DNA of 64,000 nt. Origin: Eledone cirrhosa. Its lineage: Eukaryota. The position numbers and the translations under genes were made by a program. The notes beneath the pieces are model-generated. The model had not been told where the DNA came from. It worked only from the letters and a program-made list of their open reading frames with translations, and searched no databases. The stretch covers positions 389,236,001-389,300,000 of the forward strand of contig OZ024740.1 of the NCBI GenBank assembly GCA_964016885.1. The letters are read 5' to 3'. Below, piece by piece: positions 58-43,406 of this stretch. The stretch's first letter is position 1; every line of letters begins with the position of its first letter.

Positions 58-694
58 GGCACTACCATGCTATTAGCTGTCAGAAGTGAAAGTTTCGTCA
101 ACCTTCTCAATCGTAAACATTGTTTATTTCCGTATTACCACGCATTATTTTAATAAAGCATATCGATGTAAGTGGAGTTACTTAAATGAAAATATAGGTG
201 GCCCTTAAAAGGGCCAAATTAGAAAACAAATTAAGTTAATTAGAAAACAAGTCATGGTTATCAAATAAATTGGATTTAATCATTTATATTTTCATAGTCA
301 TGGTTATCAATGTAGAAAACAAGTAATTTTCACCAACAGTGGAGTTAACTTAAATGAAAATATTGGTGGCCCTTAAAAGGGCCAAATTAGAAAACAAATA
401 TATGGTTATCAAATTTTTTTCACCAACCCTATACATGAAATTGATAACCATGACTATGAAAATATAAATGATTAAATCCAATTTATTTGATAACCATGAC
501 TTGTTTTCTAATTAACTTAAATTTGTTTACTAATTTGGCCCTTTTAAGGGCCACCTATATTTTCATTTAAGTAACTCCACTTACATCGATATGCTTTATT
601 AAAATAACGCGTGGTAATACGGAAATAAATGATGTTTACGATTGAGAAGGTTGACGAAACTTTCACTTCTGACAGCTAATAGCATGGTAGTGCC
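58..694. mobile_element. Long-TIR MITE/fold-back DNA element (GG-terminal, possibly Merlin-like)
   Basis: Arms 58-311 and 441-694 are near-perfect reverse complements (GGCACTACCATGCTATTAG...CTAATAGCATGGTAGTGCC). Flanking 8-mers atgttttc / atgtgttt match 6/8, a possible degenerate TSD. No ORF. Confidence 0.8.
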
Positions 695-1100: not shown

Positions 1101-1220
1101 TAACAATAAAAATTTACCAGAAAAAAAGTTGTATGATGAACAAGTTACAGCACGCACACATAAAGATTTTAAAATAAAGCAGAGGACAACTCGTTCGTAA
1201 AACAATTCTTCTTCTCCCGT

Positions 1221-1610
1221 TTGCCAACAAATGTGCAAACCATACTGGCAAATATAGTCGACACCAGTTCTCTGGACCAAATTGCAGCCTCAGCGGACTG
1301 CATAATGGAATTTTCTCGAGTACCTACTTCGGCAGATCCACACATTGCTTCTTCTACTTTTAAAGCACAGCCTATTCCACCTCGTGAGGACTCTATATTG
1401 AGAGCCATTGACGCGCTAACTCGTCAAGTGACTAAACTGTGTCGGGAACGAACACATTCCAGATGGCGTCCACGAAGTCGTTCTACTTCTTTTCATCGTC
1501 GCGCCAAAACCCCCGCCAACAACTCGTCTTTATGTTGGTATCACGTGCGTTTTCGTGAAAAGGCGAATCATTGTATTCAACCCTGCTCTTTCGGGACTTC
1601 GGAAAACTAA
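1221..1610 (+). pseudogene. gag: gag C-terminal fragment with CHCC motif
   Basis: LCWYHVRFREKANHCIQPC is the C-x2-H-x9-C-x3-C gag motif typical of CsRn1-clade Gypsy elements. Confidence 0.85.
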
Positions 1611-4600
1611 ACCTGGAGAATCTGGGCGCGGCAGATCTCTCCACCATTAATTTTCCTTATCGTGCCTTTTTCATAAAAGATCGAATTTCAAACAAATCGT
1701 TTATGGTCGACACAGGATCTAGTTGCAGTATTTGGCCCCTTCGTTTCAGCTGTACCAAGCCAAATTTTTCCGGTATTTCCTTGTATGCAATAAACCAGTC
1801 TCCTATAAAAACTTATGGACAAATATCTCTATCATTGGACCTAGTTTTGCGTCGGGATTTCAAATGGATTTTCGTTGTAGCAGACCTACCCCACCCTATT
1901 CTCGGTGCGGATTTTTTACACCAGTACTCACTGTTAGTAGATGTCAGGAAACAGAAAGTTGTGGATGGCACCACATCTTTATCTACACCTGCTCATAGTT
2001 CTACTGTTGCCACCATAAATCCCGCGTGTTTCATAGCTGCCTCTGGAAACCAGTTTCATTCTCTTCTTGCCTCGTTTCCCGAGTTAACTGACATTTCATT
2101 TAAACCGAACCAAGTAATCCACTCGACTCGACATTTTATTACAACAACTGCTCCGCCTGTTTTTTTCTCAGCCACGTAGGCTGGCTCCAGACAGGCTAAA
2201 AAAGGCCAGGTATGAGTTCGATCACATGCTTCAGCTTGGTCTTATACGACCGTCCACCAGCCCATGGGCATCCCCGCTTCATTTGGCTCGTAAGGATGAA
2301 GCGGATTTTAGACCTGTGGGTGATTATAGACGACTTAACGCTATCACAACACCTGATCGTTATCCTCTACCAAATTTACAGGATTTTTCATCCGCTCTGC
2401 ATGGATGCAAGATATTTTCTAAAATAGATCTGGTACGTGCTTACCATCAAATACCCATGCATCCGGAAGACATACCAAAAACAGCTGTGACCACCCCTTT
2501 TGGTTCGTTTGAATTCCTATCCATGCCTTTTGGTTTGCGGAATGCTTCTAGTACGTACCAGCGTTTAATCGATGAAGTCACGCGTGGATTGGATTTCGTG
2601 TTTGCTTACGTTGATGATCTCCTGATAGCCAGTGATTCGAATGAACACCATCATCAACATCTATCTCAGTTATTTCAACGTCTCCAATCGTACCAAGTCA
2701 GAATCAACCCAGCTAAATGTGTGTTTGGTGCAGATTCACTGGAATTCCTCGGACACCTTATAGATTCAGAAGGCATTCGTCCTTTGCCAGCTAAACTAGA
2801 GGCGATTCAGCAATTAGCACCTCCAACATCCTTGAAACAATTACGCCATTTCTTAGGATTAATTAACTTTTATCGTCGCTTTATTCCTAACTGTGCGGAT
2901 AAGTTATTCCCCTTGACACAGTTTTTAAGGGCTGCAAAAAAGAAAGATGAAAAAATTTCACTTTCTGCCGATGCATTGCAGTCTTTTAAATCTGTAAAGT
3001 CTGAGATAAAGTTTCCTTCCTTGCCCATCCTGTTGCAAATGCGAGACTTTCCTTAACTGTTGATGCATCTGATCGTGCTGTTGGCGCAGTTTTGCATCAT
3101 GTAATCGATCACCAAGTTCAACCATTGGCATTTTTCTCTCGCCAATTAAAACCAGCAGAACAGAGATACAGCACCTTTGACAGAGAACTTTTGGCGATTT
3201 ATCTTGCCGTGAAGCACTTCCACCACCTTTTGGAGGGGCGGGAGTTCACGATATTCACGGACCACAAACCGTTAACGTTCGCTTTACAATCCAAGTCCGA
3301 CAAGTACTCTCCGAGAGCGTATAGGCATCTGGATCTCATCTCACAGTACACCAGTGACATTCGTCATATAGCTGGAACTTCCAACATACCTGCCGACGCA
3401 CTATCTCGACGTTCTGTGTGTCCTCTTGCGTCTCCTGCACATATCGATTTAGTTGCCATTGCAACTGACCAACCTACTTTGGATTCTCTGGACATTTTCT
3501 CTGACCAGTTCTCCTGCTGCAAATTAGAATATTTACCTCTTCCATCTTCTGAAGGGAAAATTCTCTGCGATGTTTCTACTGGCTCACCCAGACCACTTGT
3601 TCCAGATTGTCATCAGCGTACCGTTTTTGATGCACTTCATTCCTTGTCACATCCTTGCATAGCTGCCACGGTGAAGCTTATTACGGCCCGATTCTTCTGG
3701 CCTAATATGCGCCGTTTAATCACCAGTTGGGCACGCTCTTGCTTGAAGTGTCAGCGCTCTAAGATTCATCGGCATGTCCGCGCTCCTCTTCGGAATTCCA
3801 GCCCGCCAGACGCACGTTTCCGTCATATACACATGGATATTGTTGGTCCATGGCCCGTTAGTCGTGGATTCACATACATATTTACTTGTATCGATTGTTT
3901 CTCTCGGTGGCCTGAAGCCATACCCCTCATGGACATAACAGCAGAGTCCGTTGCCAGAGCTTTCATTTCCAATTGGATTGCTCGTTTCGGTGTTCCTACT
4001 AAAATAACTACGGATCGTGAACGCCAATTTGAAGCTTCCTTATTTCGTGAAATATCACGAGTCTTGGGTGTTCATCACATCCATACGACCAGCTATCACC
4101 CAGCCTCCAATGGAATGATCGAGAGGTTTCATAGACAGTTGAAAGCTGCACTTCGCGCTACTCCTGATCCACAACGATGGACTGAATTTTTGCCTATCGT
4201 GCTTCTTGGTAGTCGTGCTGCCATTAAGACAGATTTAGGTTTTTCTTCTGCTGAACTTCTTTATGGTACCACATTGTCTCTTCCTGGACAAATGTTAGCA
4301 CCAGTGGATTCATCACATCTTGACCCAGCATCATATGTCACCGGGATTCGTTCGTATTTCTTCTGCTGTCCCATCGGACATCTCTACGTGGACACACATT
4401 TTCATACGGAATGATTCTGTCAAGGAACCTCTTACGTCACCTTATAATGGACCTTTTCGTGTGCCTTCGCACACACCCAAACATTTCACAGTGGCTGTCA
4501 ATGGCCGAGAAGAGACAATATCCATTGACAGAGCAAAAAAGGCTTTCTCCGAAAGTCTCATCACACTGCCTGATACACCTCGTACATACACTCCCCAACC

Positions 4601-4676
4601 AACACTTTCACCTCCACCGCAAACACCACATACCACACAACCTTATGTCACACGAGGTGGCAGGACGGTAAAATGA
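1571..4676 (+). pseudogene. pol: pol polyprotein (PR, RT, RNase H, integrase), three frameshift/deletion lesions
   Basis: Protease VDTGSS; [26 protein letters not shown]; RNase H RYSTFDRELLAIY, TDHKPL, ADALSR; integrase HSLSH..C..C zinc finger plus D,D,E (MDIVGP, TTDRE, IERFH); GPF motif. Frame breaks near 2170, 3010 and 4360. Confidence 0.93.
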
Positions 4677-21882: not shown

Positions 21883-22197
21883 TAAGTTTTTACCGGTTGC
21901 GCATTTCTAAATGCTTTTCAAAAATAATTTTGAGATAGAGTGTCCGTGCTGTTTGCTCTGATCTGAGCAAACAGCACGGACACTCTATCTCAAAATTATT
22001 TTTGAAAAGCATTTAGAAATGCACAACCGGTAAAAACTTAAAAACTTAAAATCACAACTGAATACTAACCCATACAATCACTAATACTCTTTTATTCCTA
22101 ATTAAACCATTTTTCAACTGTGAACAATTTGTCAGCATTTTCTATTCCGTTTACCAATATATAATAACTTGTGTGTTACACCTCTATTCTTTTAACT
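21883..22197. mobile_element. Near-perfect 158-bp palindrome (21883-22040) plus right extension; U3:A8 hammerhead-like motif in both arms
   Basis: Centre gctc-tgatct-gagc. Arms read TTGAAAA-GCAT-ttagaa-ATGC-(G/A)CAA-CCGG-TA. Repeated at 36765-37070. Confidence 0.85.
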
Positions 22198-22228
22198 ATA
22201 TATATATATATATATAAATATATATATG

Positions 22229-22305
<77 letters not shown>

Positions 22306-23085
22306 TATATATGTATGTATATATATATATAATATATATATATATATAAATATATATTTCGTTTCTGAATTTGTTTAGCAAGATTCTTTATCTGAAATCG
22401 TGTGTTGAAACCGATATTGTTATACTTTGGGAGGGTCATGTTGCCAATAAGAAACACACGCACCAGTTGCTTTCACTTCAATTTATTATAATAAATTTAT
22501 AATAAATTTATAAGTTTATAAATATATAAATTTATAAATTTCTGGTTGGTTAGTTGGTTCCACAACCAGATAGTTGTTTATATATTGTCATAGTTCTTTC
22601 GTCACACACTCTGTGACCTCTTCAGTGACTGGGGATTCCTTTCTTTGTTTTTGTGCCTCTCTTTTGTTCTGTCCTACGCCATTTTGTTTCTGTGTGTGTG
22701 TTGTGTGCTCAGTCTGCGCATGCGCCACATCCGGGTGCCTGTGTGTGTTTATGTTCATGTATTTATTTGTTTATTTACATGTTACTGGTTGGTTGTTTGT
22801 TCTATGTGTGTGTGTGTATTCATTTTGTCCTTCATTATAAGTTGTGACGTTGCTGTTCCACTCATATTTTCTATTTAATTTTGGTTGTAATTCTTTTATG
22901 TTTATTGCCTCTGTGATTTGTCTAAACATTGCCTCTTTTCTGTGTGTAGATTCTATTTTTATTTCTATGTTCTCTAATTTACCCTTGTGTTCTATTTTAG
23001 CATGTTGGTAGAGTACAGATGATTCTTTACTATCTTGAAGGTCTCGCCAGTTGCTGGGCCTCCATTCTATTATGCTTCTTGCTAT

Positions 23086-24985
23086 ACTATTATGAACAAA
23101 CAGAAGCACAATTTAATATAGCTAGATCCGAACTTAGAAATATTATAGAACATTATAGCAAGAAACATAATAGAATGGAGGCCCAGCAACTGGGAAAAAA
23201 ATCTGCAAATGGCTTGCGTAATCTCATGCAGCGCTCGCGTAATGAAGAGATAGCATGCTTTCCAACAGACAAGTCTGGCAGAATGTCGGTTGACAGCCTG
23301 CCAAACTACATCCAGGCAATGCAACCCCACATCACCAACACAAGAGAGGTAACACCACAGGAGCATGAGGATAGAGAAAAAGCCCTCAATGCCCATATGG
23401 TGATGTGGACAAATATAATGCAGCCCAACAAAAGGACTGCCAACAACTTCCAGGCCTGGAACAATGACGTGCCGGCGTTGTATGGGCTTCGAAAAGACCA
23501 TAAAACGGGCAGTGACCCTGTCGCGGGACCACCAACACGGCCAGTCTGTGGAGCTAACATTGCTAGTAACTACAGACTGTCCTACTTCCTCTCCTTGATC
23601 ATACGCCCCTTCATTGAAATGTCCCCAGATGTATGTGACAGCACGGAGGACCTCCTCGGCAGGATCGGCGTGAGTAACCGATCTAGGGACCTAACAAACT
23701 GCATAATAGGTAGTATGGATGTTGTGTCCCTGTATCCATCTATTGACGTGTATTTTGCTGTGGATAAATGCGTAGAAATGATCAGTGAGAGCAATGTTGA
23801 GTTCCGTGGGATTGATACCAGTGAGCTGGGACTCCTACTTAAACTTACCTATAGTAATAATTACCTAGACACATATGACCTTAGCAACCTGTGCCCTACA
23901 AGACCAGCAAGAGGCAGACCACCTACCATTACCTCAATGGCCAAGAAAACCCACACAGATAGATGGAACGGGTGGACCAGAGCATTAGAGTTACTATAGA
24001 CTACCCAAGTAAACACCCCAACCACCGATTGCCTGTACTAGACACAGAGCTCTGGTTAGATACCATTAATAACAAAAAACAAATCCTCCATTCCCATTAT
24101 GCCAAACCCATGACTTCCAAACATCTGATCCACCGAAACTCGGCCGTTTCGGACCATACCAAAATCAACATACTGATTGCGGATTTGGTATGGGTGATGA
24201 GAAACGTGTCCCGCATGTGCAACCCCGAAGAACTAGAGAGACACATACAACACTTCATCCACCGTATGCAGTTCTCTGGCTACAATCAGAGAGATAAAAT
24301 CAGAGTATATAGAGGAGCCAGAACCAAATGGGAAAAAATGGTACATAATGACATAAATGGGACCTGCCCCTTGTATAGGAGCAAATTTTGGAATAGAATA
24401 GAAAGAACTAGGAACAAGACTAATAGAATAAACTCATGGTATGATAGCAATAAATACCAGAGTGTAATGTTCATCGATACAACCCCTAGATGTGAATTAG
24501 CTTACAAATTTAGAAGGGCCCTAGATAAACATAAACTCAATATTAAGATAGTAGAAAGACCAGGTACCTCCGTAAAAACACTTATTAGCAAGACATACCC
24601 TTTTCAAAGACCCTCATGTATAGATAAGAAATGTATAACCTGTAAAATAAGCCCCCATATTAACTGTAAAACTAGAAATGTAGTGTATAGCATAAGATGT
24701 ACCGAAGGACAATGTAGAGACAAAAATATAGTGTACATAGGTGAGACAGCTCGTAGTGTAGGGGAACGGATAAATGAACACTGGCGAGACCTTCAAGATA
24801 GTAAAGAATCATCTGTACTCTATCAACATACTAAAATAGAACACAAGGGTAAATTAGAGAACATAGAAATAAAAATAGAATCTACACACAGAAAAGACGC
24901 AATGTTTAGACAAATCACAGAGGCAATAAACATAAAAGAATTACAACCAAAATTAAATAGAAATATGAGTGGAACAGCAACATCA
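23086..24985 (+). pseudogene. PLE RT-GIY-YIG ORF with the RT catalytic core deleted
   Basis: ORFs 23019-23999 and 23963-25048 join by a frameshifting deletion near 23965. No GxxMG or YxDD motif is present. Confidence 0.85.
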
Positions 24986-25200
24986 CAACTTATAATGAAG
25001 GACAAAATGAATACACAGACACACATAGAACAAACAACCAACCAGTAACATGTAAATAAACAAATAAATAAATGAACATAAACACACACAGACACCCGGA
25101 TGTGGCGCATGCGCAGACTGAGCACACAACACACACACAGAAACAAAATGGCGTAGGACAGAACAAAGGAGAGGCACAAAAACAAAGAAAGGAATCCCCA

Positions 25201-25243
25201 GTCACTGAAGAGGTCACAGAGTGTATGACGAAAGAACTATGAC
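25201..25243 (+). ncRNA. Type I minimal hammerhead in PLE family 1 pseudo-LTR (also 22587-22629 minus, 37578-37620 minus, 40184-40226 plus, 53289-53331 minus)
   Basis: GTCA-CTGAAGA-G-GTCA..TGAC-GAAA-G-AA-C-TA-TGAC: stems I, II and III, CUA cleavage triplet. Confidence 0.85.
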
Positions 25244-25448
25244 AATATATAAACAACTATCTGGTTGTGGAACCAACTAACCAACCAGAAATTTATAAAT
25301 TTATAAATTTATAAATTTATTATAAATTTATTATAATAAATTGAAGTGAAAGCAACTGGTGCGTGTGTTTCTTATTGGCAACATGACCCTCCCAAAGTAT
25401 AACAATATAAATATATATATGTATATATAATATATATATATATATATA

Positions 25449-25816
25449 TTAGAAAGTGAGGTTTTTTTTACAAAATGAAAAATAACCGAGGTGTCCTACA
25501 CGAGTGGAAGTATAAAGAAAAAGGGATGAAATCGAAAATGCAACTGAAGTCTTATTTTTTTTTTTTTTTTTTTTTTAAAATATATATATTTATTTGGTTC
25601 CTTTACCGGTTTCGCAGTTCTTCTGCTTTTCAAAAGGTGAGTTGAGATGGAGGGTCTGTGGTTTTTCTCACATCTGTGAGAAAAACCACAGACCCTCCAT
25701 CTCAACTCACCTTTTGAAAAGCAGAAGAACTGCGAAACCGGTAAAGGAACCAAATAAATATATATATTTTAAAAAAAAATAAGACTTCAGTTGCATTTTC
25801 GATTTCATCCCTTTTT

Positions 25817-25823
<7 letters not shown>
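25449..25823. mobile_element. Fold-back mini-element (palindrome 25511-25823, 2-nt loop) in (TA)n; absent from the duplicated block
   Basis: Arms are identical apart from poly-T/A length. Centre ctcaca-tc-tgtgag. ~60-bp left tail. Confidence 0.92.
25710..25747 (+). ncRNA. Type I hammerhead with U3:A8 core (mirror copy 25600-25637 minus)
   Basis: CCTT-TTGAAAA-GCAG-aagaa-CTGC-GAAA-C-CG-G-TA-AAGG. All three stems pair; GUA triplet. Confidence 0.8.
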
Positions 25824-27871
<2,048 letters not shown>

Positions 27872-29017
27872 TATGCAAAAGTTCTATTTAAATTGTTGGG
27901 ATACAAGAAGTAAATATTTTTATAACTGATATAAAGCACTCGACAAATATTTGGAGTAGATATACGATATTAATAAATGGAAACTATATTTATAAAACCA
28001 TATTTATTTCATTATAGATATTTCAAGGATACCAAGTTAAATTATGGTATGCATTCATTAGACAAAATACAATATATATCAGTTTTACAAATAAGCATTG
28101 ACGTACCCTTTCAAAATGCGACCATGACTTTTGGAGGACATCAGGATAGTGGTTTGTTTATATTATTTTAGTAAGTGTTAGTGTTAAGGACAATTACAAA
28201 TGACGGAGAGAGAAAAGCGTGGAGAAAAAACAGAGAGAGAGAGAGAAAAGCGTGGAGAAAAAGGGAGAGATAAATAAAGAAAAATAGGAAAGAAAAGAAG
28301 AAAAAAGAAAAAAATAAGAAAACAGAGGAAAGCAACAGAGAGATATCAAACCATCAGACAGGAAGAAAAAACTCAAGAGAGAGAAATAAGAGATAGAGAG
28401 AGGGGGAGAGAACGAAAGCCTTAAGTCGTATCATATTAAGTTGAGTTAACAATTGAGATGAAATGAATAAATAAAATTAGAAATATTAATATTCATGAAT
28501 GGAATATACGTATATAATATGAGAAATTAATCATTGTTTAATTATGATTAGATATTTAGTTTAAAAATTGAGATCAATATACTAAAAATTGGAATTTAGA
28601 CATCACAAAATGTATATTGCTATAGAGATTACCTATCGTACAGCACGTATATATAGGCAAAGATACATAAATATATATATACACATACATTCAGAAAATA
28701 GACATTATATCTACTCCCGCATATATTATATACATACAGAGCATAAGTAATTTTTTTTATTACTGCTATACATTCCTTGTGTTATTAAATAAAAAATTCA
28801 CAGTATATATATATAAATATATAGGATTAACTTTCATGCATTTATGGGTGTTAAAATTATGCATATCTGCAATCAAAACTGTATGGGTAAGCATGCACAC
28901 ACATAACTCCTAGCTATACACACATATATATATATATATATATATAAATATGTGCGTGCATCTTCACCCGATTGGTAGACACGCGTCAATGCTTATTTGT
29001 AAAACTGATATATATTG

Positions 29018-29082
29018 TATTTTGTCTGATGAAGGCATACCATAATTTAACTTGGTATCCTTGAAATATCTATAATGAAATA
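29018..29082 (+). ncRNA. Type I hammerhead in the 5' pLTR of the Naiad-like element (also 43474-43538)
   Basis: tattttgt-CTGATGA-aggcATACCA..TGGTATcctt-GAAA-TA-tc-TA-TA-atgaaata. Confidence 0.75.
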
Positions 29083-29261
29083 AATATGGTTTTATAAATA
29101 TAGTTTCCATTTATTAATATCGTATATCTACTCCAAATACTTGTCGAGTGCTTTATATCAGTTATAAAAATATTTACTTGTTGTATCCCAACAATTTAAA
29201 TAGAACTTTTGCATATTCTCTGCTCCTTTATTGTTGAGCGCTTTACATTATAACTGAAAAA

Positions 29262-31491
29262 ATGGAATTCTTTAAGATCTCTTCTTCTCTAAAAGATATA
29301 CCTCTACCTAGGAACAAAGATTTTATTAAACAATTAATAGAAAAATCAGATTCTTTTATAAGAAGAATCAGGTGGCGTTTCCACTTCGATAAATCTAATC
29401 TAATTGAAAATGTTTCAAATCTGGATAAACTCTTCAAATCTAAAAAAAAATCCACCCCCCCCCCCCCCCCAACAAACTACTAATGGATTTTGAAAATGAT
29501 ATCATATCTATCATCCAAAGCATCAAATTCAAAAAAAACTTCAAAGGCCAAGATTACTTAAGAAATATTAAGGATAATATTGAAAACTTGGAGAAAACGG
29601 AGAAAATTCTAGTGAAGTCGGACAAAACTAATAATCTTTACGGAATACAAAAGGACATTTATAACGACCTTATATTGAAGGAACTAAGGAAGAAATACAA
29701 GGTAGCAAATAAGGACGAACTTGAAAAACTGAATACAGATGCCTCTTGTATAATTCATGAACTACACATTGAAAATAAAACACAACCCTTCATGCCAAGG
29801 AAACCTAAGATCAATATGAAGGATCACAAAAGAAACTTTGAAAATGATTTACCAGTCAGATTAATTGCACCATCTAAATCTGACCTGGGCAGACTTAGCA
29901 AAAATATTCTAGACAGAGTAATACAACAAATTAAGAATTTACCTAATTTATCTTAAAATTATGGAAAGGGACTAGTGAGGTTATCGATTGGTTTAAAGAA
30001 ATTAAATATAACTATAATAAGTTTATTCAGCTGGATATTGCTAACTACTACTCATCTATCATTCCAAATCTACTGAATAAGGCACTAACTTACGCATTTA
30101 AACATACAGACCTAACTAGCAATGAAATGCACATTATATTATCGGCACGGAAAACATTAATAGAATTTAATAACCAACTCTGGACTAGGGCAGATAGAAA
30201 TAATAATTTCGACATAACTATGGGTTCTTCAGACTCAGCTCAGGTAACGGACCTTGTGGGCCTATTTATAATTAATTCTCTACATAGAAAAATACCAGGT
30301 GTAACCGGAAGCTTATATCGTGACGACATGCTTTTACTTATAGAAAATAATAGCTGTGAACTAAATAGAAAAAGAAAACAAATTATACAATTTTTTAATT
30401 ACCTTAATCTAAAAGTAGAAATAGAGAATAACCATAAAATAGTCAATTTTCTAGATGTAACACTAAATCTCAACACATGTCTTCATTATCCATTTCACAA
30501 ACTAAATGAGAACTTGAATTATGTTAATTTTAACTCTAATCACCCCAGATCCGTAAAAAATACTATAGTGAACTCTGTTCAAGAACGAATTTCAAGAATT
30601 TCATCTAATAAGAATATATTTGATGAAAAAGCGCATTATTACAACGAAGCGTTAGGTAGAGCTGGGTATAGAAATAAAATTAAATACATCGATAATAATA
30701 ATAATAAACAAACTAACCAAAATAATAACAACTTTAATTATGGTAACAACTTTAACAACTATAATAGAAAACATTACAGTAATTCCGAAAGCCGAAAAAG
30801 AAATAGAACTAGGAATATATTATGGTTCGCCCCTCCTTTCTCACTAAATATTAAAACCCCTATTGCTAAACTATTCTTTAAAGCTCTTGACAAACGCTTC
30901 CCTAGAACACATAAATATTACTCAATTTTTAATAGACATACTATAAAATTAACTTACTCTTCCACCAAAAATTTAGCGCAAAATATTAATAGAATTAATA
31001 ATAGAAACTTAAAACCTAACCAAAATACCAATAATAACCCAAGCAATATTCAATCGAATAACTGTAACTGTAGAAATAAATCCAACTGTCCGTTAAATAA
31101 CAACTGCTTAGCTAAAAATGTAGTTTATAATTGTAATGTTAAAACTAATTTAAATTCATTTAATTATGTCGGTTCTACCTCTACAGAATTTAAATCCCGC
31201 TTCAATAATCATAAAAATTCTTTTACAGATCCAAACAAAAAATCTTCAACTTCGCTATCTAGCCTATTATGGGACCTAAAACGAGATAATGTTGAATATT
31301 CGCTGATTTGGAATATTATTTCAAAAGCTACTCCTTTTAATTCCTCTTCAGAAAATTGTGATCTTTGTATAGAAGAAATATTCTTTATATTAAAGACCAA
31401 AAATTCCCTTAATCTAAGGAATAATTTATTCAGTTGCTGCAGACATAGATTGAACTCAACGTTTAAATATAAATATAAATTTAAAATGTAG
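29262..31491 (+). pseudogene. Naiad-like PLE RT + GIY-YIG ORF, frameshifted
   Basis: SLKDIPLP, FIRRIRW, KSDKT, KDHK, RLIAPSKS, FIQLDI, FDITMGS, LYRDD, FLDVT, SNHP, ILWFAPP, CNCR..CP..C, NVVY..YVG, CDLCIEE, CRH. Breaks in the poly-C run (~29460) and at ~29950. Confidence 0.9.
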
Positions 31492-32270
31492 TATAATTAA
31501 TTAAGTAATTTGGTTAATATATGAAACCTGTCGATAGATCATTAGATTCCTTCACCTTTTTCTTTTTAAATTTTCTTCCTAAATATAAATATAGATATAA
31601 TAAAGTACTCTAAAATGTCTATCCTTCCAATATCTTAAATAAAATATACGTAAGATAAATTTCTATACTAAATATATTAAACATATTATTTTAGCTTAAA
31701 ATATTCTATAATTTTAAAATATTTTAATATTTTGATATCTGTAGAATCCTTGTTTTTTAAATTATATTGATATAATATTTTATTTATTTTTTATTAGGTT
31801 TGTTTTTATTCTGATAGCTTCTCATAATTTTCAAAAGTTTATCCTTTCAATATCTTGATTAAAATATACGTAAGATAAATTTCTATACTAAATCTATTAA
31901 ACATATTATTTTAACTTAAGATATTCTATAATATTTTAAAATATTTAATATTTTGATATTTGTAGAATTCGTTTGTCTTTTAAGTTATACTGATATAATT
32001 ATATTTCCAAAATATAATCCTTTTGTATTTTAAATATATATTGATATAATTATATTTCCAAAATATAATCCTTTTGTATTTTATATACTCAATTGTACTA
32101 TGTAATATATTGATGTATACTTATCTCTATACGAATATGTATATATATATATGTGTATTAACATACATATACATGTGTTATATGCTTTTTTGTGATTATA
32201 TATCTGTCTGTATATATGCATGAGTGACGCGTGTCTACCAATCGGGTGAAGATGCACGCACATATTTATA

Positions 32271-32315
<45 letters not shown>

Positions 32316-34436
32316 ATAGCTAGGAGTTATGTGTGTGCATGCTTACCCATACAGTTTTGATTGCAGATATGCATAATTTTAACACCCATAAATGCATGAA
32401 AGTTAATCCTATATATTTATATATATACTGTGAATTTTTTATTTAATAACACAAGGAATGTATAGCAGTAATAAAAAAAGTCACTTATGCTCTGTATGTA
32501 TATATTATATGCGGGAGTAGATATAATGTCTATTTTCTGAATGTATGTGTATATATATATTTATGTATCTTTGCCTATATATACGTGCTGTACGATAGGT
32601 AATCTCTATAGCAATATACATTTTGTGATGTCTAAATTCCAATTTTTAGTATATTGATCTCAATTTTTAAACTAAATATCTAATCATAATTAAACAATGA
32701 TTAATTTCTCATATTATATACGTATATTCCATTCATGAATATTAATATTTCTAATTTTATTTATTCATTTCATCTCAATTGTTAACTCAACTTAATATGA
32801 CATGACTTAAGGCTTTCGTTCTCTCCCCCTCTCTCTATCTCTTATTTCTCTCTCTTGAGTTTTTTCTCTCAGTCTGATGGTTTGATATCTCTCTGTTGCT
32901 TTCCTCTGTTTTCTTATTTTTTTCTTTTTTCTTCTTTTCTTTCCTCTTTTTCTTTATTTATCTCTCCCTTTTTCTCCACGCTTTTCTCTCTCTCTCTGTT
33001 TTTTCTCCACGCTTTTCTCTCTCTCTCCGTCTTTTGTAATTGTCCTTAACACTAAGACTTACTAAAATAATATAAACAAACCACTATCCTGATGTCCTCC
33101 AAAAGTGATGGTCGCATTTTGAAAGGGTACGTCAATGCTTATTTGTAAAACTGATATATATTGTATTTTGTCGGATGAAGGCATACCATAATTTAACTTG
33201 CTATCCTTGAAATATGTATAATGAAATAAATATGGTTTTATAAATATAGTTTCCAATTCGATATTGAGCGTTTGACAATCCAGTTAGAGAATCGTAGTCT
33301 GATGTTCTTTAGTTCAATACAGGAGGCTGTTACGTTTCGAGAAACGACATTGAATACCACCCGGAAGTGTGTGTGTGGCTAAGGGGAGTTAATGCATGAG
33401 GGGAGGTAACTCCGGGGTTTCTATACCTAGCTATTGAAATGTGTCTCAATATAGACCCTAATTTCTATGGTTATGCGCAACTTCCAAAAAATTTCTAAAG
33501 CATAAAGTGTTTTAACTATAGAGTAGTTTAATTAAGTTGTGCTGAAGGTGTTCGTATTATTATGGTGAATTAATGATCTCTGTGGTTGTAGTCTACTCAT
33601 AGGACCAGAGAACTTACCAGAGATCATTGTGTCTTGAAGTGATTCTGCAACCACCGCGAATTGTCGTGGATTATGTGAGGGGCATATAATCGATAAATAC
33701 ACTCCCCTGACCATGAAAATGTCGAAGTACATGAAGTACTTGTCATCCCTTCGCTGTGCATCTCCATTACTTTAATATTTTTAATATTTTTAATGCTTGC
33801 ACTATTTTTAATGCTTATATCATTTCTCCACACACAGACTATATCAATCATATAAAGAATCTGCCACCAGATCAACCAACCTAACACTCTTGTTTACCTA
33901 CCTAAGTGCCTCTACTACACGTATCTCTCTGCCACACTATATAAACAAGACGCACGTGCTTGCCACACATATAACATTTGCACTATATAACCGCTTATTT
34001 TCATGTTGTATTTTAACCTGTATTTTTGATTTTTGATTGTACCTTTTAATATGAATGTAATCTCGAAGTGTGTACTGCCACTCTAAATTCTGTAATGAAT
34101 GTTGACCCACAATATTTGCATATGTATCGGTATGTCTCTTGGCTGAAAAGGAGGTCATATAACTGTCCATCCATTAATAAATTGCTCCGAAGAATCCAAA
34201 CCTCGGTTTGGAAGAAACAGCTGTAAGCACAATAATGTTTTGAACAGTTCTTTGATTCTTATATTTCATATAACTGCTCTGTAAAGCATCTGATGTTTTT
34301 ACATTGAGCTACTTAACTTACTGGTAATAAGGTAGTAATACATTACTGCCTACCACTATTTAGGGTTTGTATAAAAAATACATATAACTGCATAAGGTTT
34401 TTGTATTTACATAACCATAAATAGTATAATTAATAC

Positions 34437-36027: not shown

Positions 36028-36227
36028 NNNNNNNNNNNNNNNNNNNNNNNNNNNNNNNNNNNNNNNNNNNNNNNNNNNNNNNNNNNNNNNNNNNNNNNNN
36101 NNNNNNNNNNNNNNNNNNNNNNNNNNNNNNNNNNNNNNNNNNNNNNNNNNNNNNNNNNNNNNNNNNNNNNNNNNNNNNNNNNNNNNNNNNNNNNNNNNNN
36201 NNNNNNNNNNNNNNNNNNNNNNNNNNN
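36028..36227. other. Assembly gap (200 N)
   Basis: Run of N. Confidence 1.
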
Positions 36228-36710: not shown

Positions 36711-37100
36711 TAGCGAGGTTTTTTATATGAAAGAAATCGTGTGTCGAAACAGATATTGTTATACTAAGTTTTTACCGGTTGCGCATTTCTAAATGCTTTT
36801 CAAAAATAATTTTGAGATAGAGTGTCCGTGCTGTTTGCTCTGATCTGAGCAAACAGCACGGACACTCTATCTCAAAATTATTTTTGAAAAGCATTTAGAA
36901 ATGCGCAACCGGTAAAAACTTAAAACCACAACTGAATACTAACCCATACAATCACTAATACTCTTTTATTCCTAATTAAACCATTTTTCAACTGTGAACA
37001 ATTTGTCAGCATTTTCTATTCCGTTTACCAATATATAATAACTTGTGTGTTACACCTCTATTCTTTTAACTATATATATATATATATAAATATATATATG

Positions 37101-37296
<196 letters not shown>

Positions 37297-37343
37297 TATA
37301 TGTATGTATATATATATAATATATATATATATATAAATATATA

Positions 37344-40300
37344 TTTCGTTTCTGAATTTGTTTAGCAAGATTCTTTATCTGAAATCGTGTGTTGAAACCG
37401 ATATTGTTATACTTTGGGAGGGTCATGTTGCCAATAAGAAACACACGCACCAGTTTATTATAATAAATTCAATTTATTATAATAAATTTATAATAAATTT
37501 ATAAGTTTATAAATATATAAATTTATAAATTTCTGGTTGGTTAGTTGGTTCCACAACCAGATAGTTGTTTATATATTGTCATAGTTCTTTCGTCACACAC
37601 TCTGTGACCTCTTCAGTGACTGGGGATTCCTTTCTTTGTTTTTGTGCCTCTCTTTTGTTCTGTCCTACGCCATTTTGTTTCTGTGTGTGTGTTGTGTGCT
37701 CAGTCTGCGCATGCGCCACATCCGGGTGCCTGTGTGTGTTTATGTTCATGTATTTATTTGTTTATTTACATGTTACTGGTTGGTTGTTTGTTCTATGTGT
37801 GTGTGTGTATTCATTTTGTCCTTCATTATAAGTTGTGATGTTGCTGTTCCACTCATATTTTCTATTTAATTTTGGTTGTAATTCTTTTATGTTTATTGCC
37901 TCTGTGATTTGTCTAAACATTGCGTCTTTTCTGTGTGTAGATTCTATTTTTATTTCTATGTTCTCTAATTTACCCTTGTGTTCTATTTTAGCATGTTGGT
38001 AGAGTACAGATGATTCTTTACTATCTTGAAGGTCTCGCCAGTTGCTGGGCCTCCATTCTATTATGCTTCTTGCTATACTATTATGAACAAACAGAAGCAC
38101 AATTTAATATAGCTAGATCCGAACTTAGAAATATTATAGAACATTATAGCAAGAAACATAATAGAATGGAGGCCCAGCAACTGGGAGAAAAATCTGCAAA
38201 TGGCTTGCGTAATCTCATGCAGCGCTCGCGTAATGGAGAGATAGCATGCTTTCCAACAGACAAGTCTGGCAGAATGTCGGTTGACAGCCTGCCAAACTAC
38301 ATCCAGGCAATGCAACCCCACATCACCAACACAAGAGAGGTAACACCACAGGAGCATGAGGATAGAGAAAAAGCCCTCAATGCCCATATGGTGATGTGGA
38401 CAAATATAATGCAGCCCAACAAAAGGACTGCCAACAACTTCCAGGCCTGGAACAATGACGTGCCGGCGTTGTATGGGCTTCGAAAAGACCATAAAACGGG
38501 CAGTGACCCTGTCGCGGGACCACCAACACGGCCAGTCTGTGGAGCTAACATTGCTAGTAACTACAGACTGTCCTACTTCCTCTCCTTGATCATACGCCCC
38601 ATCATTGAAATGTCCCCAGATGTATGTGACAGCACGGAGGACCTCCTCAGCAGAATCGGCGTGAGTAACCGATCTAGGGACCTAACAAACTGCATAATAG
38701 GTAGTATGGATGTTGTGTCCCTGTATCCATCTATTGACGTGGATTTTGCTGTGGATAAATGCGTAGAAATGATCAGTGAGAGCAATGTTGAGTTCCGTGG
38801 GATTGATACCAGTGAGCTGGGACTCCTACTTAAACTTACCTATAGTAATAATTACCTAGACACATATGACCTTAGCAACCTGTGCCCTACAAGACCAGCA
38901 AGAGGCAGACCACCTACCATTACCTCAATGGCCAAGAAAACCCACACAGATAGATGGAACGGGTGGACCAGAGCATTAGAGTTACTATAGACTACCCAAG
39001 TAAACACCCCAACCACCGATTGCCTGTACTAGACACAGAGCTCTGGTTAGATACCATTAATAACAAAAAACAAATCCTCCATTCCCATTATGCCAAACCC
39101 ATGACTTCCAAACATCTGATCCACCGAAACTCGGCCGTTTCGGACCATACCAAAATCAACATACTGATTGCGGATTTGGTATGGGTGATGAGAAACGTGT
39201 CCCGCATGTGCAACCCCGAAGAACTAGAGAGACACATACAACACTTCATCCACCGTATGCAGTTCTCTGGCTACAATCAGAGAGATAAAATCAGAGTATA
39301 TAGAGGAGCCAGAACCAAATGGGAAAAAATGGTACATAATGACATAAATGGGACCTGCCCCTTGTATAGGAGCAAATTTTGGAATAGAATAGAAAGAACT
39401 AGGAACAAGACTAATAGAATAAACTCATGGTATGATAGCAATAAATACCAGAGTGTAATGTTCATCGATACAACCCCTAGATGTGAATTAGCTTACAAAT
39501 TTAGAAGGGCCCTAGATAAACATAAACTCAATATTAAGATAGTAGAAAGACCAGGTACCTCCGTAAAAACACGCATTAGCAAGACATACCCTTTTCAAAG
39601 ACCCTCATGTATAGATAAGAAATGTATAACCTGTAAAATAAGCCCCCATATTAACTGTAAAACTAGAAATGTAGTGTATAGCATAAGATGTACCGAAGGA
39701 CAATGTAGAGACAAAAATATAGTGTACATAGGTGAGACAGCTCGTAGTGTAGGGGAACGGATAAATGAACACTGGCGAGACCTTCAAGATAGTAAAGAAT
39801 CATCTGTACTCTATCAACATACTAAAATAGAACACAAGGGTAAATTAGAGAACATAGAAATAAAAATAGAATCTACACACAGAAAAGTTTAGACAAATCA
39901 CAGAGGCAATAAACATAAAAGAATTACAACCAAAATTAAATAGAAATATGAGTGGAACAGCAACATCACAACTTATAATGAAGGACAAAATGAATACACA
40001 CACACACATAGAACAAACAACCAACCAGTAACATGTAAATAAACAAATAAATAAATGAACATAAACACACACAGACACCCGGATGTGGCGCATGCGCAGA
40101 CTGAGCACACAACACACACACAGAAACAAAATGGCGTAGGACAGAACAAAGGAGAGGCACAAAAACAAAGAAAGGAATCCCCAGTCACTGAAGAGGTCAC
40201 AGAGTGTATGACGAAAGAACTATGACAATATATAAACAACTATCTGGTTGTGGAACCAACCAACCAACCAGAAATTTATAAATTTATAAATTTATTATAA

Positions 40301-40383
40301 ATTTATTATAATAAATTGAAGTGAAAGCAACTGGTGCGTGTGTTTCTTATTGGCAACATGACCCTCCCAAAGTATAACAATAT
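37344..40383 (+). mobile_element. PLE family 1, copy B (counterpart of copy A)
   Basis: Same structure and RT deletion; an extra 8-bp deletion near 39887. Confidence 0.93.
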
Positions 40384-40396
40384 AAATATATATATG

Positions 40397-40466
<70 letters not shown>

Positions 40467-40632
40467 ATATAATATATATATGTATGTATATATAATATAT
40501 ATATATATGTATATATAATATATATATATATGTATATATAATATATATATATATGTATGTATATATAATATATATATATATGTATATATAATATATATAT
40601 ATATGTATATATAATATATATATATATGTATG

Positions 40633-40672
<40 letters not shown>

Positions 40673-40707
40673 TATATATGTATATATAATATATATATAT
40701 ATGTATG

Positions 40708-40747
<40 letters not shown>

Positions 40748-40782
40748 TATATATGTATATATAATATATATATATATGTATG

Positions 40783-40813
<31 letters not shown>

Positions 40814-40834
40814 ATATAGATATATATGTATATA

Positions 40835-40890
<56 letters not shown>

Positions 40891-41026
40891 ATATATATAT
40901 ATAATATATATATATATATATAATATATATATATATATGTATATATAATATATATATATATATAATATATATATATATGTATATATAATATATATATATA
41001 TATAATATATATATATATATATAAAT

Positions 41027-41059
<33 letters not shown>

Positions 41060-41083
41060 AATATATATATGTATATATATATG

Positions 41084-41128
<45 letters not shown>

Positions 41129-41276
41129 ATATATATATATAAATATATATGTATGTATATATATATATATATAAATATATATGTATGTATATATATATAT
41201 ATAAATATATATGTATGTATATATATATAAATATATATATGTATGTATATATATATATATAAATATATATATGTAT

Positions 41277-41346
<70 letters not shown>

Positions 41347-41371
41347 ATATATATATATAAATATATATATG

Positions 41372-41827
<456 letters not shown>

Positions 41828-41831
41828 TATG

Positions 41832-41972
<141 letters not shown>

Positions 41973-42033
41973 ATATATATATATAAATATATATATGTAT
42001 GTATATATATATATATATATAAATATATCTATC

Positions 42034-42082
<49 letters not shown>

Positions 42083-42101
42083 ATATATAAATATATATCT
42101 G

Positions 42102-42237
<136 letters not shown>

Positions 42238-42247
42238 TATATATATA

Positions 42248-42312
<65 letters not shown>

Positions 42313-42319
42313 TTATATA

Positions 42320-43367
42320 TATGCAAAAGTTCTATTTAAATTGTTGGGATACAACAAGTAAATATTTTTATAACTGATATAAAGCACTCGACAAATATTT
42401 GGAGTAGATATACGATATTAATAAATGGAAACTATATTTATAAAACCATATTTATTTCATTATAGATATTTCAAGGATACCAAGTTAAATTATGGTATGC
42501 ATTCATTAGACAAAATACAATATATATCAGTTTTACAAATAAGCATTGACGTACCCTTTCAAAATGCGACCATGACTTTTGGAGGACATCAGGATAGTGG
42601 TTTGTTTATATTATTTTAGTAAGTCTTAGTGTTAAGGACAATTACAAATGACGGAGAGAGAGAAAAGCGTGGAGAAAAAACAGAGAGAGAGAGAGAAAAG
42701 CGTGGAGAAAAAGGGAGAGATAAATAAAGAAAAATAGGAAAGAAAAGAAGAAAAAAGAAAAAAATAAGAAAACAGAGGAAAGCAACAGAGAGATATCAAA
42801 CCATCAGACAGGAAGAAAAAACTCAAGAGAGAGAAATAAGAGATAGAGAGAGGGGGAGAGAACGAAAGCCTTAAGTCGTATCATATTAAGTTGAGTTAAC
42901 AATTGAGATGAAATGAATAAATAAAATTAGAAATATTAATATTCATGAATGGAATATACGTATATAATATGAGAAATTAATCATTGTTTAATTATGATTA
43001 GATATTTAGTTTAAAAATTGAGATCAATATACTAAAAATTGGAATTTAGACATCACAAAATGTATATTGCTATAGAGATTACCTATCGTACAGCACGTAT
43101 ATATAGGCAAAGATACATAAATATATATATACACATACATTCAGAAAATAGACATTATATCTACTCCCGCATATAATATATACATACAGAGCATAAGTGA
43201 TTTTTTTTATTACTGCTATACATTCCTTGTGTTATTAAATAAAAAATTCACAGTATATATATATAAATATATAGGATTAACTTTCATGCATTTATGGGTG
43301 TTAAAATTATGCATATCTGCAATCAAAACTGTATGGGTAAGCATGCACACACATAACTCCTAGCTAT

Positions 43368-43406
<39 letters not shown>

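What the first reader, a model, noticed from the sequence alone, without database searches (positions are those of the whole stretch)
25449..25823. Young perfect palindrome with twin U3:A8-core hammerheads, present in only one copy of the duplicated block
Seen: CCTT-TTGAAAA-GCAG(aagaa)CTGC-GAAA-CCGG-TA-AAGG on both strands, identical arms, a 2-nt loop, and an empty TA site at the matching position (~40410). Known: hammerhead positions 3 and 8 form a Watson-Crick pair, and U3:A8 is a tolerated but rare alternative to C3:G8 that CUGANGA searches miss. A tiny palindromic stem III suggests dimer cleavage. Inference: a recently mobile, probably polymorphic element with a non-canonical ribozyme.
Basis: partly seen in the sequence, partly recalled or inferred. 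Interest (0 to 1): 0.85.

Follow-up and report, generated by a model that had tools for sequence, protein, structure and literature searches.

The report
Back-to-back Penelope retroelement ends with ribozymes
The palindrome is two short, back-to-back copies of the end of a common Penelope-like jumping gene (over 11,000 matching copies in this animal genome), each with a known variant of the hammerhead self-cutting RNA motif, and the pattern across copies suggests that one RNA is likely copied twice, once from each cut DNA strand.

Summary
The insert (25449-25823) is a head-to-head pair of 5'-truncated terminal repeats (pLTRs) of an RT + GIY-YIG Penelope-like retrotransposon with a Neptune-type linker; I found the parent. 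The hammerhead core has 11,539 exact genomic matches. U3:A8 minimal hammerheads, opposite-strand pairs and dimer cleavage are already described for Penelope-like elements (PMC4209133). The two ribozymes lie on opposite strands and cannot dimerise with each other; a read-through RNA is one long hairpin. The family adds three things. Fold points pile up 30 nt below a TATA box (47 of 88 arms; likely the transcription start). Pairs join one long and one short 3' end (32 of 33 typed pairs). The two arms share subfamily variants. Best model: one RNA is reverse-transcribed twice, from two TA patches, primed on both strands of a (TA)n target. A modest excess of arms starting at the predicted cut site (95 versus 13 at a matched control) hints at occasional cleavage in vivo, but neighbouring positions are also raised. 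New member of a known kind.

The parts
25449..25823 (.). Whole insertion: head-to-head pair of 5'-truncated pLTRs of a Penelope-like element, in a (TA)n tract
25449..25676 (-). Long arm: from position -43 (relative to hammerhead U3) to the distal 3' end at about +171, with tail
25449..25510 (-). Tail (about 62 nt) between the two 3' ends used by the family; present on this arm only
25675..25823 (+). Short arm: from position -39 to the proximal 3' end at about +108
25673..25676 (.). Fold junction (TC loop / 2-nt microhomology) at the family's 5'-end hot spot, the likely transcription start; same junction at L088 and L111
25710..25747 (+). Minimal type I hammerhead motif, U3:A8 core, palindromic 6-nt stem III; predicted cut after 25743
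25600..25637 (-). Mirror copy of the hammerhead motif; predicted cut after 25604
25496..25606 (-). Possible intron (GT inside the hammerhead at G16.2-U16.1, AG after a pyrimidine tract); read from sequence only, untested
   Evidence: sequence; no spliced genomic copy
22355..25408 (+). Neighbouring unrelated Penelope-like copy (inverted long pLTR, broken ORF 23001-25048, short pLTR end); the insertion sits in the TA tract at its end
25201..25246 (+). Canonical C3:G8 hammerhead motif in the neighbouring element's pLTR
40397..40460 (.). Empty TA tract at the matching place of the second block
21883..22195 (.). Sister-family palindrome (centre near 21961; second copy near 36765-37085) with the same U3:A8 core and compensatory stem changes

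Best explanation
The insert is a head-to-head pair of 5'-truncated terminal repeats of a Penelope-like retrotransposon with RT and GIY-YIG domains, likely made when the element's protein cut both strands of a (TA)n tract and copied one RNA twice. Shown: the parent reads pLTR, ORF (RT, CX4CxxC linker, GIY-YIG), about 1.1 kb of 3' UTR, pLTR, with the hammerhead about 200 nt before the ATG. The family has two fixed 3' ends 63 nt apart, each at a TA patch of its own sequence. Inverted pairs nearly always join one long and one short end. 5' ends pile up at -45 to -33. Inferred: the pile-up is the transcription start (TATA box 30 nt upstream). One nicked strand primes at the distal TA patch and the other at the proximal patch. 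Both cDNAs run off the same RNA 5' end and are joined blunt, by microhomology or with a short insert. Because the start sites lie only 150-215 nt from the RNA 5' end, most products are tiny pLTR palindromes. The hammerhead is a passenger of the pLTR. It is predicted to be inactive as a monomer and weakly active as a two-RNA dimer. Most templates were uncut; a small fraction were probably cut at GUA.
For: Parent ORF and tandem pLTRs; Pfam GIY-YIG above cut-off and RVT_1 at E about 1e-6, just under cut-off. Of 78 sites picked by the exact core, 38 had a true adjacent inverted arm after dropping 7 spurious simple-repeat hits: 32 long+short, 1 long+long, 0 short+short, 5 with one atypical end. Arms agree in subfamily variants at 19 of 19, 20 of 20 and 23 of 24 sites (shuffled means 11.6, 10.4, 8.5). 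Of 88 arms picked by a motif 3' of the ribozyme, 47 start at -45..-33; TATA box at -72; the sister family repeats this (8 of 24 at -45..-34). Both arms also end together away from the hot spot (-148/-148, -62/-66, -27/-27, -773/-799; +30/+30 at L189/L190). Neither arm is regularly longer (16 versus 13, 3 equal). PMC11167929 shows both-strand cleavage and extension, two internal RT start sites matching the tail, and a predicted dimer.
Against: No RNA data, so the transcription start is inferred only. Arm concordance could also come from two RNAs of one source locus or from gene conversion. Later deletions at the palindrome centre could blur which arm is longer. Half of the sites (38 of 78) are solo or their partner was not seen. 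[quoted passage not shown] The sample comes from the first 36 Mb of one chromosome plus this window. No full-length uninterrupted ORF was seen among 10 long loci, so present activity is not shown.
Confidence: 0.62

Rival explanations
1. Same element, but the palindrome forms by fold-back: a single long cDNA (or an antisense RNA, as proposed in PMC3846280) primes on itself at the template end, is copied back, and joins the other target end at the internal TA patch.
For: Explains long+short pairing, arm concordance and matched ends equally well. Short microhomologies at 14 of 32 junctions. Self-priming is the published proposal.
Against: Fold-back from the long cDNA requires the long arm to reach at least as far 5' as the short arm; the short arm reaches further at 13 of 32 sites. 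9 of 32 junctions carry inserted letters and 9 are blunt. A 2-nt loop is a very tight hairpin.
Confidence: 0.27
2. Two independent RNAs each prime one target strand, and ends coincide only because both stop at the common transcription start.
For: 18 of 32 long+short pairs have both ends at -45..-27; the protein of a related element is a predicted dimer (PMC11167929).
Against: Does not explain matched ends away from the hot spot or, by itself, 32 of 33 long+short pairs; concordance needs one source locus.
Confidence: 0.08
3. The hammerhead motif is a non-cleaving relic or a protein-binding structure, and the excess of 5' ends near +30 reflects RT pausing at structure plus A/TA microhomology. 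This concerns the ribozyme only and is compatible with any insertion model.
For: Monomer fold is unremarkable (z -0.5). No Rfam hammerhead match. Positions +26..+36 are all raised; +30 versus +29, +31, +32 gives p 0.055. The sister family has C at position 13. A subfamily in run X1 and organism C reads breaks a stem II pair. One main subfamily loses a stem I pair.
Against: Core, stem II and the palindromic stem III are kept between families whose proteins are only about 52-56% identical, with both-sided changes in stems I and II (only two families, so weak). +30 is the highest single position; 36 of 95 are TA-flanked versus 0 of 13 at the matched control. Rfam also misses the canonical hammerhead next door.
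Confidence: 0.35
4. The palindrome is a chimeric fold-back read or an assembly artefact.
For: This locus was not genotyped in reads; it lies among TA arrays in a block that may be an uncollapsed haplotype.
Against: The flanks are not mirrored and are colinear with the second block on both sides. The arms have different, family-typical 3' ends. Many loci show varied junctions. Opposite-strand joints and the same three ends appear in raw Illumina reads of another organism (joints from only 2-3 read start places).
Confidence: 0.03

Closest known systems
Minimal hammerheads of metazoan Penelope-like elements, including the U3-A8 variant of Schistosoma Cercyon (Cervera and de la Pena 2014, PMC4209133)
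   Same: Type I minimal motif in the pLTR, U3-A8 core (about 1,300 hits there), palindromic 15.2-16.2 region, dimer requirement, pairs 100-700 bp apart on opposite strands.
   Different: Here stem II is only 4 bp with no bulge after position 9, the family is nearly invariant (11,539 exact cores), and the carrier has a Neptune-type linker.
Neptune/Nematis EN+ PLEs (as described in Craig et al. 2021, PMC8557442)
   Same: RT followed by a CX2-5CxxC linker and C-terminal GIY-YIG; partial tandems; inverted 5'-truncated copy; tail at one end; microsatellite targets.
   Different: Tail is 63 nt rather than 30-40. Clade not placed on a tree here. Tiny palindromes of pLTR alone are very frequent.
Poseidon PAc of Anolis, in vitro (Frangieh et al. 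2024, PMC11167929)
   Same: Two RT start sites that define the tail; AT-rich target; most templates uncut by the hammerhead.
   Different: Start sites here coincide with TA patches that match the target and lie before the ATG. That paper does not discuss inverted insertions (its one use of 'inverted' concerns a blocking group) and found no reads ending at the cut site.
Twin priming of LINE-1 (recalled, not read here)
   Same: Both target strands prime on one RNA and the cDNAs join by microhomology, giving an inversion.
   Different: L1 segments barely overlap. Here both cDNAs copy the same stretch, giving a palindrome, and the second start site is fixed.
Non-LTR retrozymes (PMC7229834 search listing; 10.64898/2026.07.22.740005 part 1)
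   Same: Short PLE-derived sequences with type I hammerheads.
   Different: Retrozymes are head-to-tail tandems that give circular RNA; this is head-to-head and a direct truncation product of a coding family.

Membership tests
EN+ Penelope-like element | ORF with RT and C-terminal GIY-YIG linked to this repeat | tested here: met
   motif lies about 1 kb after the stop codon in most of 25 loci; Pfam GIY-YIG above cut-off, RVT_1 just under
EN+ Penelope-like element | Partial tandem giving direct pLTRs | tested here: met
   L125: 321-nt direct repeat before and after the ORF; sister family L248
EN+ Penelope-like element | Inverted 5'-truncated copy and a tail at one end | tested here: met
   32 of 38 adjacent inverted pairs are long+short
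Neptune clade | CX2-5CxxC linker before GIY-YIG | tested here: met
   KKCGRSNCGTC; shared with Nematis per PMC8557442
Neptune clade | Phylogenetic placement of the RT | not tested
   No reference PLE proteins were fetched
Hammerhead ribozyme (minimal type I) | Conserved core with a 3:8 Watson-Crick pair, GAAA, UH, and stems I and II | tested here: met
Hammerhead ribozyme (minimal type I) | Covariation of stems | tested here: inconclusive
   2 of 11 pairs change on both sides between two families; one stem I pair is lost in 3 of 4 rows; almost no variation within the family
Hammerhead ribozyme (Rfam models) | Match to an Rfam hammerhead model | tested here: not met
   the canonical neighbour is missed too
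Hammerhead ribozyme (minimal type I) | Self-cleavage after position 17 | not testable with these tools
   Indirect only: excess of genomic 5' ends at +30
Non-LTR retrozyme | Head-to-tail tandem monomers, each with a hammerhead | tested here: not met
   Arrangement is head-to-head
MITE / DNA transposon | Equal terminal inverted repeats around a spacer, fixed centre, no link to an RT | tested here: not met
   Unequal 3' ends, variable centres, RT parent

The most novel reading that the evidence does not exclude
This family records the Penelope integration reaction in thousands of copies. A dimeric RT-endonuclease copies one RNA twice from two fixed TA patches, one per target strand, down to the RNA's 5' end, which explains the inverted repeat and the one-sided tail in a single step. 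A minority class that begins exactly at the GUA cut is a genomic footprint of a U3:A8 hammerhead cleaving in vivo. A splice donor overlapping the cut site could make splicing, cleavage and retrotransposition alternative fates of the same RNA.
Probability: 0.3. Interest if true: 0.7.

Novelty: new member of a known kind. Interest (0 to 1): 0.42.

Why it matters
The motif and the architecture are known. The value lies in the numbers. How Penelope-like elements make inverted repeats with a tail at one end is named as open in PMC8557442, and whether their hammerheads cut in vivo is unresolved (PMC11167929 found no such RNA ends). A young family with more than 11,000 near-identical copies gives sharp, testable predictions for both, and names short RNA substrates for an in vitro assay.

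Tried and rejected
A DNA search of the genome with the 86-nt arm returned nothing, probably because very common words are skipped; patterns worked. An exact 33-nt pattern for the upstream region hit one place only; a BLAST-type search then found the family. Rfam: no hammerhead at gathering or E-value level; the miRNA hits are generic hairpin scores below cut-off. Pfam gave no RT or GIY-YIG hit on the window's own four PLE-like ORFs. Sequencing runs: no RNA holder listed, which is no evidence either way. No spliced genomic copy for either of two candidate acceptors; PLE copies retain introns, so this is uninformative. An anchored downstream control could not be run; a shorter unanchored one was used and checked on 30 loci. 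Lunse et al. (PMC5785218) is not held; I know it only from its title in the reference list of PMC6765202. No earlier scan findings. Rejected: intramolecular dimer within the palindrome, MITE, retrozyme, read artefact. No homologue search, fold or tree was run. Supplements were not read; those of PMC4209133 may list this or a related family.

Full report
Observation. The longest perfect arm is 105 nt around a TC loop at 25673-25674, and the arms match further once a 22 versus 9 nt A/T run is allowed for. The insert runs 25449-25823. It is not symmetric: the left arm has about 62 nt more. The hammerhead-like motif occurs once per strand (U3 at 25714 on +, at 25633 on -), with the predicted cut after 25743. 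Blocks 22193-25449 and 25894-32896 match 37186-40424 and 40372-47346, and the second copy has only a TA tract at the matching place. The blocks are 98.8-98.9% identical and meet at a 200-N gap, so they may be two haplotypes; either way the insert is younger than the split, or was lost from one copy.

It is a large family. The 30-nt core has 5,818 + 5,721 exact matches in the 3-Gb genome and the reversed control has 0. A 20-nt motif just 3' of the cut site has 15,418. Runs from 8 studies, labelled with 8 organisms, hold the stretch or part of it; one may be the source of this DNA. The species was not determined.

Parent. Walking 5' from one long copy led to an ORF with RT motifs, a CX4CxxC linker and a GIY-YIG domain ending about 1 kb before the hammerhead. 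Pfam gives GIY-YIG above cut-off and RVT_1 at E 2e-6 to 4e-6, just under cut-off. L125 is a partial tandem: a 321-nt repeat, an ATG about 40 nt after the tail, the ORF, a 3' UTR and the repeat again. This is the structure of an EN+ Penelope-like element; the linker is that of the Neptune/Nematis clades (PMC8557442, passages). None of the 10 long loci had an uninterrupted full ORF; copies are 96-99% identical. The window's long arm is identical, outside the run, to 2 of 109 long arms compared.

Anatomy of insertions. I analysed 78 sites that hold the exact core (the first 36 Mb of contig 1 plus the window). The script flagged 45 with an adjacent inverted hit; 7 were simple-repeat hits and were dropped. 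Of the other 38, 32 join one long and one short 3' end, 1 is long+long, none is short+short, and 5 have one atypical end. Two more short arms have an inverted long arm further upstream, and 38 sites are solo or their partner was not seen. Both 3' ends fall at TA patches of the element's own sequence, 63 nt apart. The arms of a pair agree in subfamily variants at 19 of 19, 20 of 20 and 23 of 24 informative sites, against shuffled means of 11.6, 10.4 and 8.5. The long arm reaches further 5' at 16 sites, the short at 13, and 3 are equal; junctions are microhomologous (14), blunt (9) or have inserts (9). L088 and L111 have the same junction as the window.

Where the fold lies. Among 88 arms chosen by the downstream motif (88 of the first 100 listed, those up to 24.3 Mb), 47 begin at -45 to -33 relative to U3, 28 further upstream, 6 at -32 to -5 and 7 inside or after the ribozyme. 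A TATA box lies at -72 and an initiator-like CCAGATG at -44, so the hot spot is likely the transcription start. This is an inference; no RNA run was listed. A sister family (6,670 exact matches; also in this window at 21883-22195) has the same ORF type, two 3' ends, a similar box at about -75 and 8 of 24 arms starting at -45 to -34. Raw Illumina reads of organism C show loose ends at the long end and at -42/-43, and opposite-strand joints, the latter from only 2-3 start places; X1 contigs show both 3' ends.

Mechanism. I favour one RNA copied twice. The endonuclease nicks both strands of a (TA)n tract; one end primes at the distal and one at the proximal TA patch; both cDNAs run to the same RNA 5' end and are joined. 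Matched ends away from the hot spot (-148/-148, -62/-66, -27/-27, -773/-799, +30/+30) need a shared template end or a fold-back. Fold-back from the long cDNA predicts that the long arm always reaches furthest, which fails at 13 of 32 sites, though later deletions could mimic that. PMC11167929 (parts 1-2 and passages read) shows both-strand extension, two start sites matching the tail and a predicted dimer, but no strand difference in start site. PMC3846280 (passages and discussion read) proposes self-priming on an antisense template. A search for 'Penelope', 'twin priming', 'inverted' and 'retrotransposon' listed 2 papers, neither on this by title or abstract; searches listed none that places the fold at the transcription start, judged from listings and the passages read. 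Subscription papers are not covered.

The ribozyme. Core, stems I and II and a palindromic ACCGGU stem III fit a minimal type I hammerhead. The monomer cannot close stem III (2-nt loop), while the two-molecule double hammerhead scores -21.1 kcal/mol against a cofold optimum of -22.5. The palindrome's own two motifs are on opposite strands, and a read-through RNA folds into one hairpin of -255 kcal/mol, so they cannot act together. Between the main and sister families one pair in stem I and one in stem II change on both sides; one stem I pair is absent in 3 of 4 rows. Against: monomer z-score -0.5, no Rfam match, C at position 13 in the sister family, and a subfamily in X1 and organism C that breaks a stem II pair.

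Footprint of cleavage? 81 of 88 arms start upstream of the ribozyme, so most templates were uncut. Three of the other 7 start exactly at +30, the predicted 3' product. Genome-wide, 95 arms start at +30 versus 13 at a matched control, +22; 29 of 30 checked belong to the family; by my hand count 36 of 95 versus 0 of 13 are TA-flanked. The neighbours are raised too. Of the first 100 of 280 matches, I counted by hand 21, 12, 25, 19 and 15 at +28 to +32, and 8 point mutants. +26/+27 together have 76. +34 to +36 have 176 matches; 20 of 30 checked were family members and 5 of those were mutants with an intact upstream part. Filters differ between these searches. So +30 is the top position but only about 1.3 to 2 times its neighbours (p 0.055). 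Occasional cleavage is somewhat more likely than not; RT pausing plus microhomology remains open.

Known versus new. PMC4209133 (parts 1-2 of 4 read) already reports U3-A8 minimal hammerheads in Cercyon PLEs (about 1,300), opposite-strand pairs, palindromic helix III and low dimer activity. PMC3088659 (section 8 read) reports natural U3-A8 covariation. PMC8557442 lists inverted copies, one-sided tails and microsatellite bias. The finding is therefore a new member of a known kind. The interest comes from the family statistics, which make the integration mechanism and in vivo cleavage directly testable. Overall interest 0.42.

Noticed in passing
window 21883-22195 and 36765-37085: Sister PLE family palindrome with the same U3:A8 core but GCAA instead of GAAA (C at hammerhead position 13); 6,670 exact genomic matches; Neptune-type ORF at L248, L247, L259.
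   Followed up: partly
window 25606-25496 (-); sister family L248: A GT donor-like site overlaps the hammerhead cut site in both families, followed about 100 nt later by a pyrimidine tract and AG; the sister family has a TACTAAC in between. Possible 5' UTR intron that would compete with cleavage.
   Followed up: partly
L116-L125, ORF junction about 400 codons in: The parent ORF changes frame at one A-run in most long copies and reads through in L116; either slippage damage or a programmed frameshift.
   Followed up: no
window 22355-25408, 37300-40400, 53151-54684: A second PLE family with a canonical CUGAAGA hammerhead; it too has an inverted long pLTR on one side and a short end on the other.
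   Followed up: partly
window 27871-33258 and 42319-47346: A third PLE-like family (ORF 29444-31491) with inverted repeats and a CUGAUGA motif at 29026.
   Followed up: no
window 58-694: Inverted repeat (255 nt, 98%) holding three matches to the histone 3' stem-loop model at gathering score, without a histone ORF among the listed ORFs.
   Followed up: no
window 49929-50340 and 60205-60852: Two further head-to-head inverted pairs with perfect arms of 106 and 188 nt; probably other PLE ends.
   Followed up: no
window 36028-36227: 200-N gap exactly between the two 98.8%-identical blocks; the duplication may be an uncollapsed haplotype.
   Followed up: partly
window 1173-4676; 50676-53000 and 56167-59241: A broken Gypsy-like pol region, and two copies of a LINE (one with a 1,024-aa open frame); assigned by eye from motifs.
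   Followed up: no
L183, L186: Tandem duplications that start exactly at the predicted cut site behind an intact hammerhead, as expected from a template jump off a cleaved RNA.
   Followed up: no
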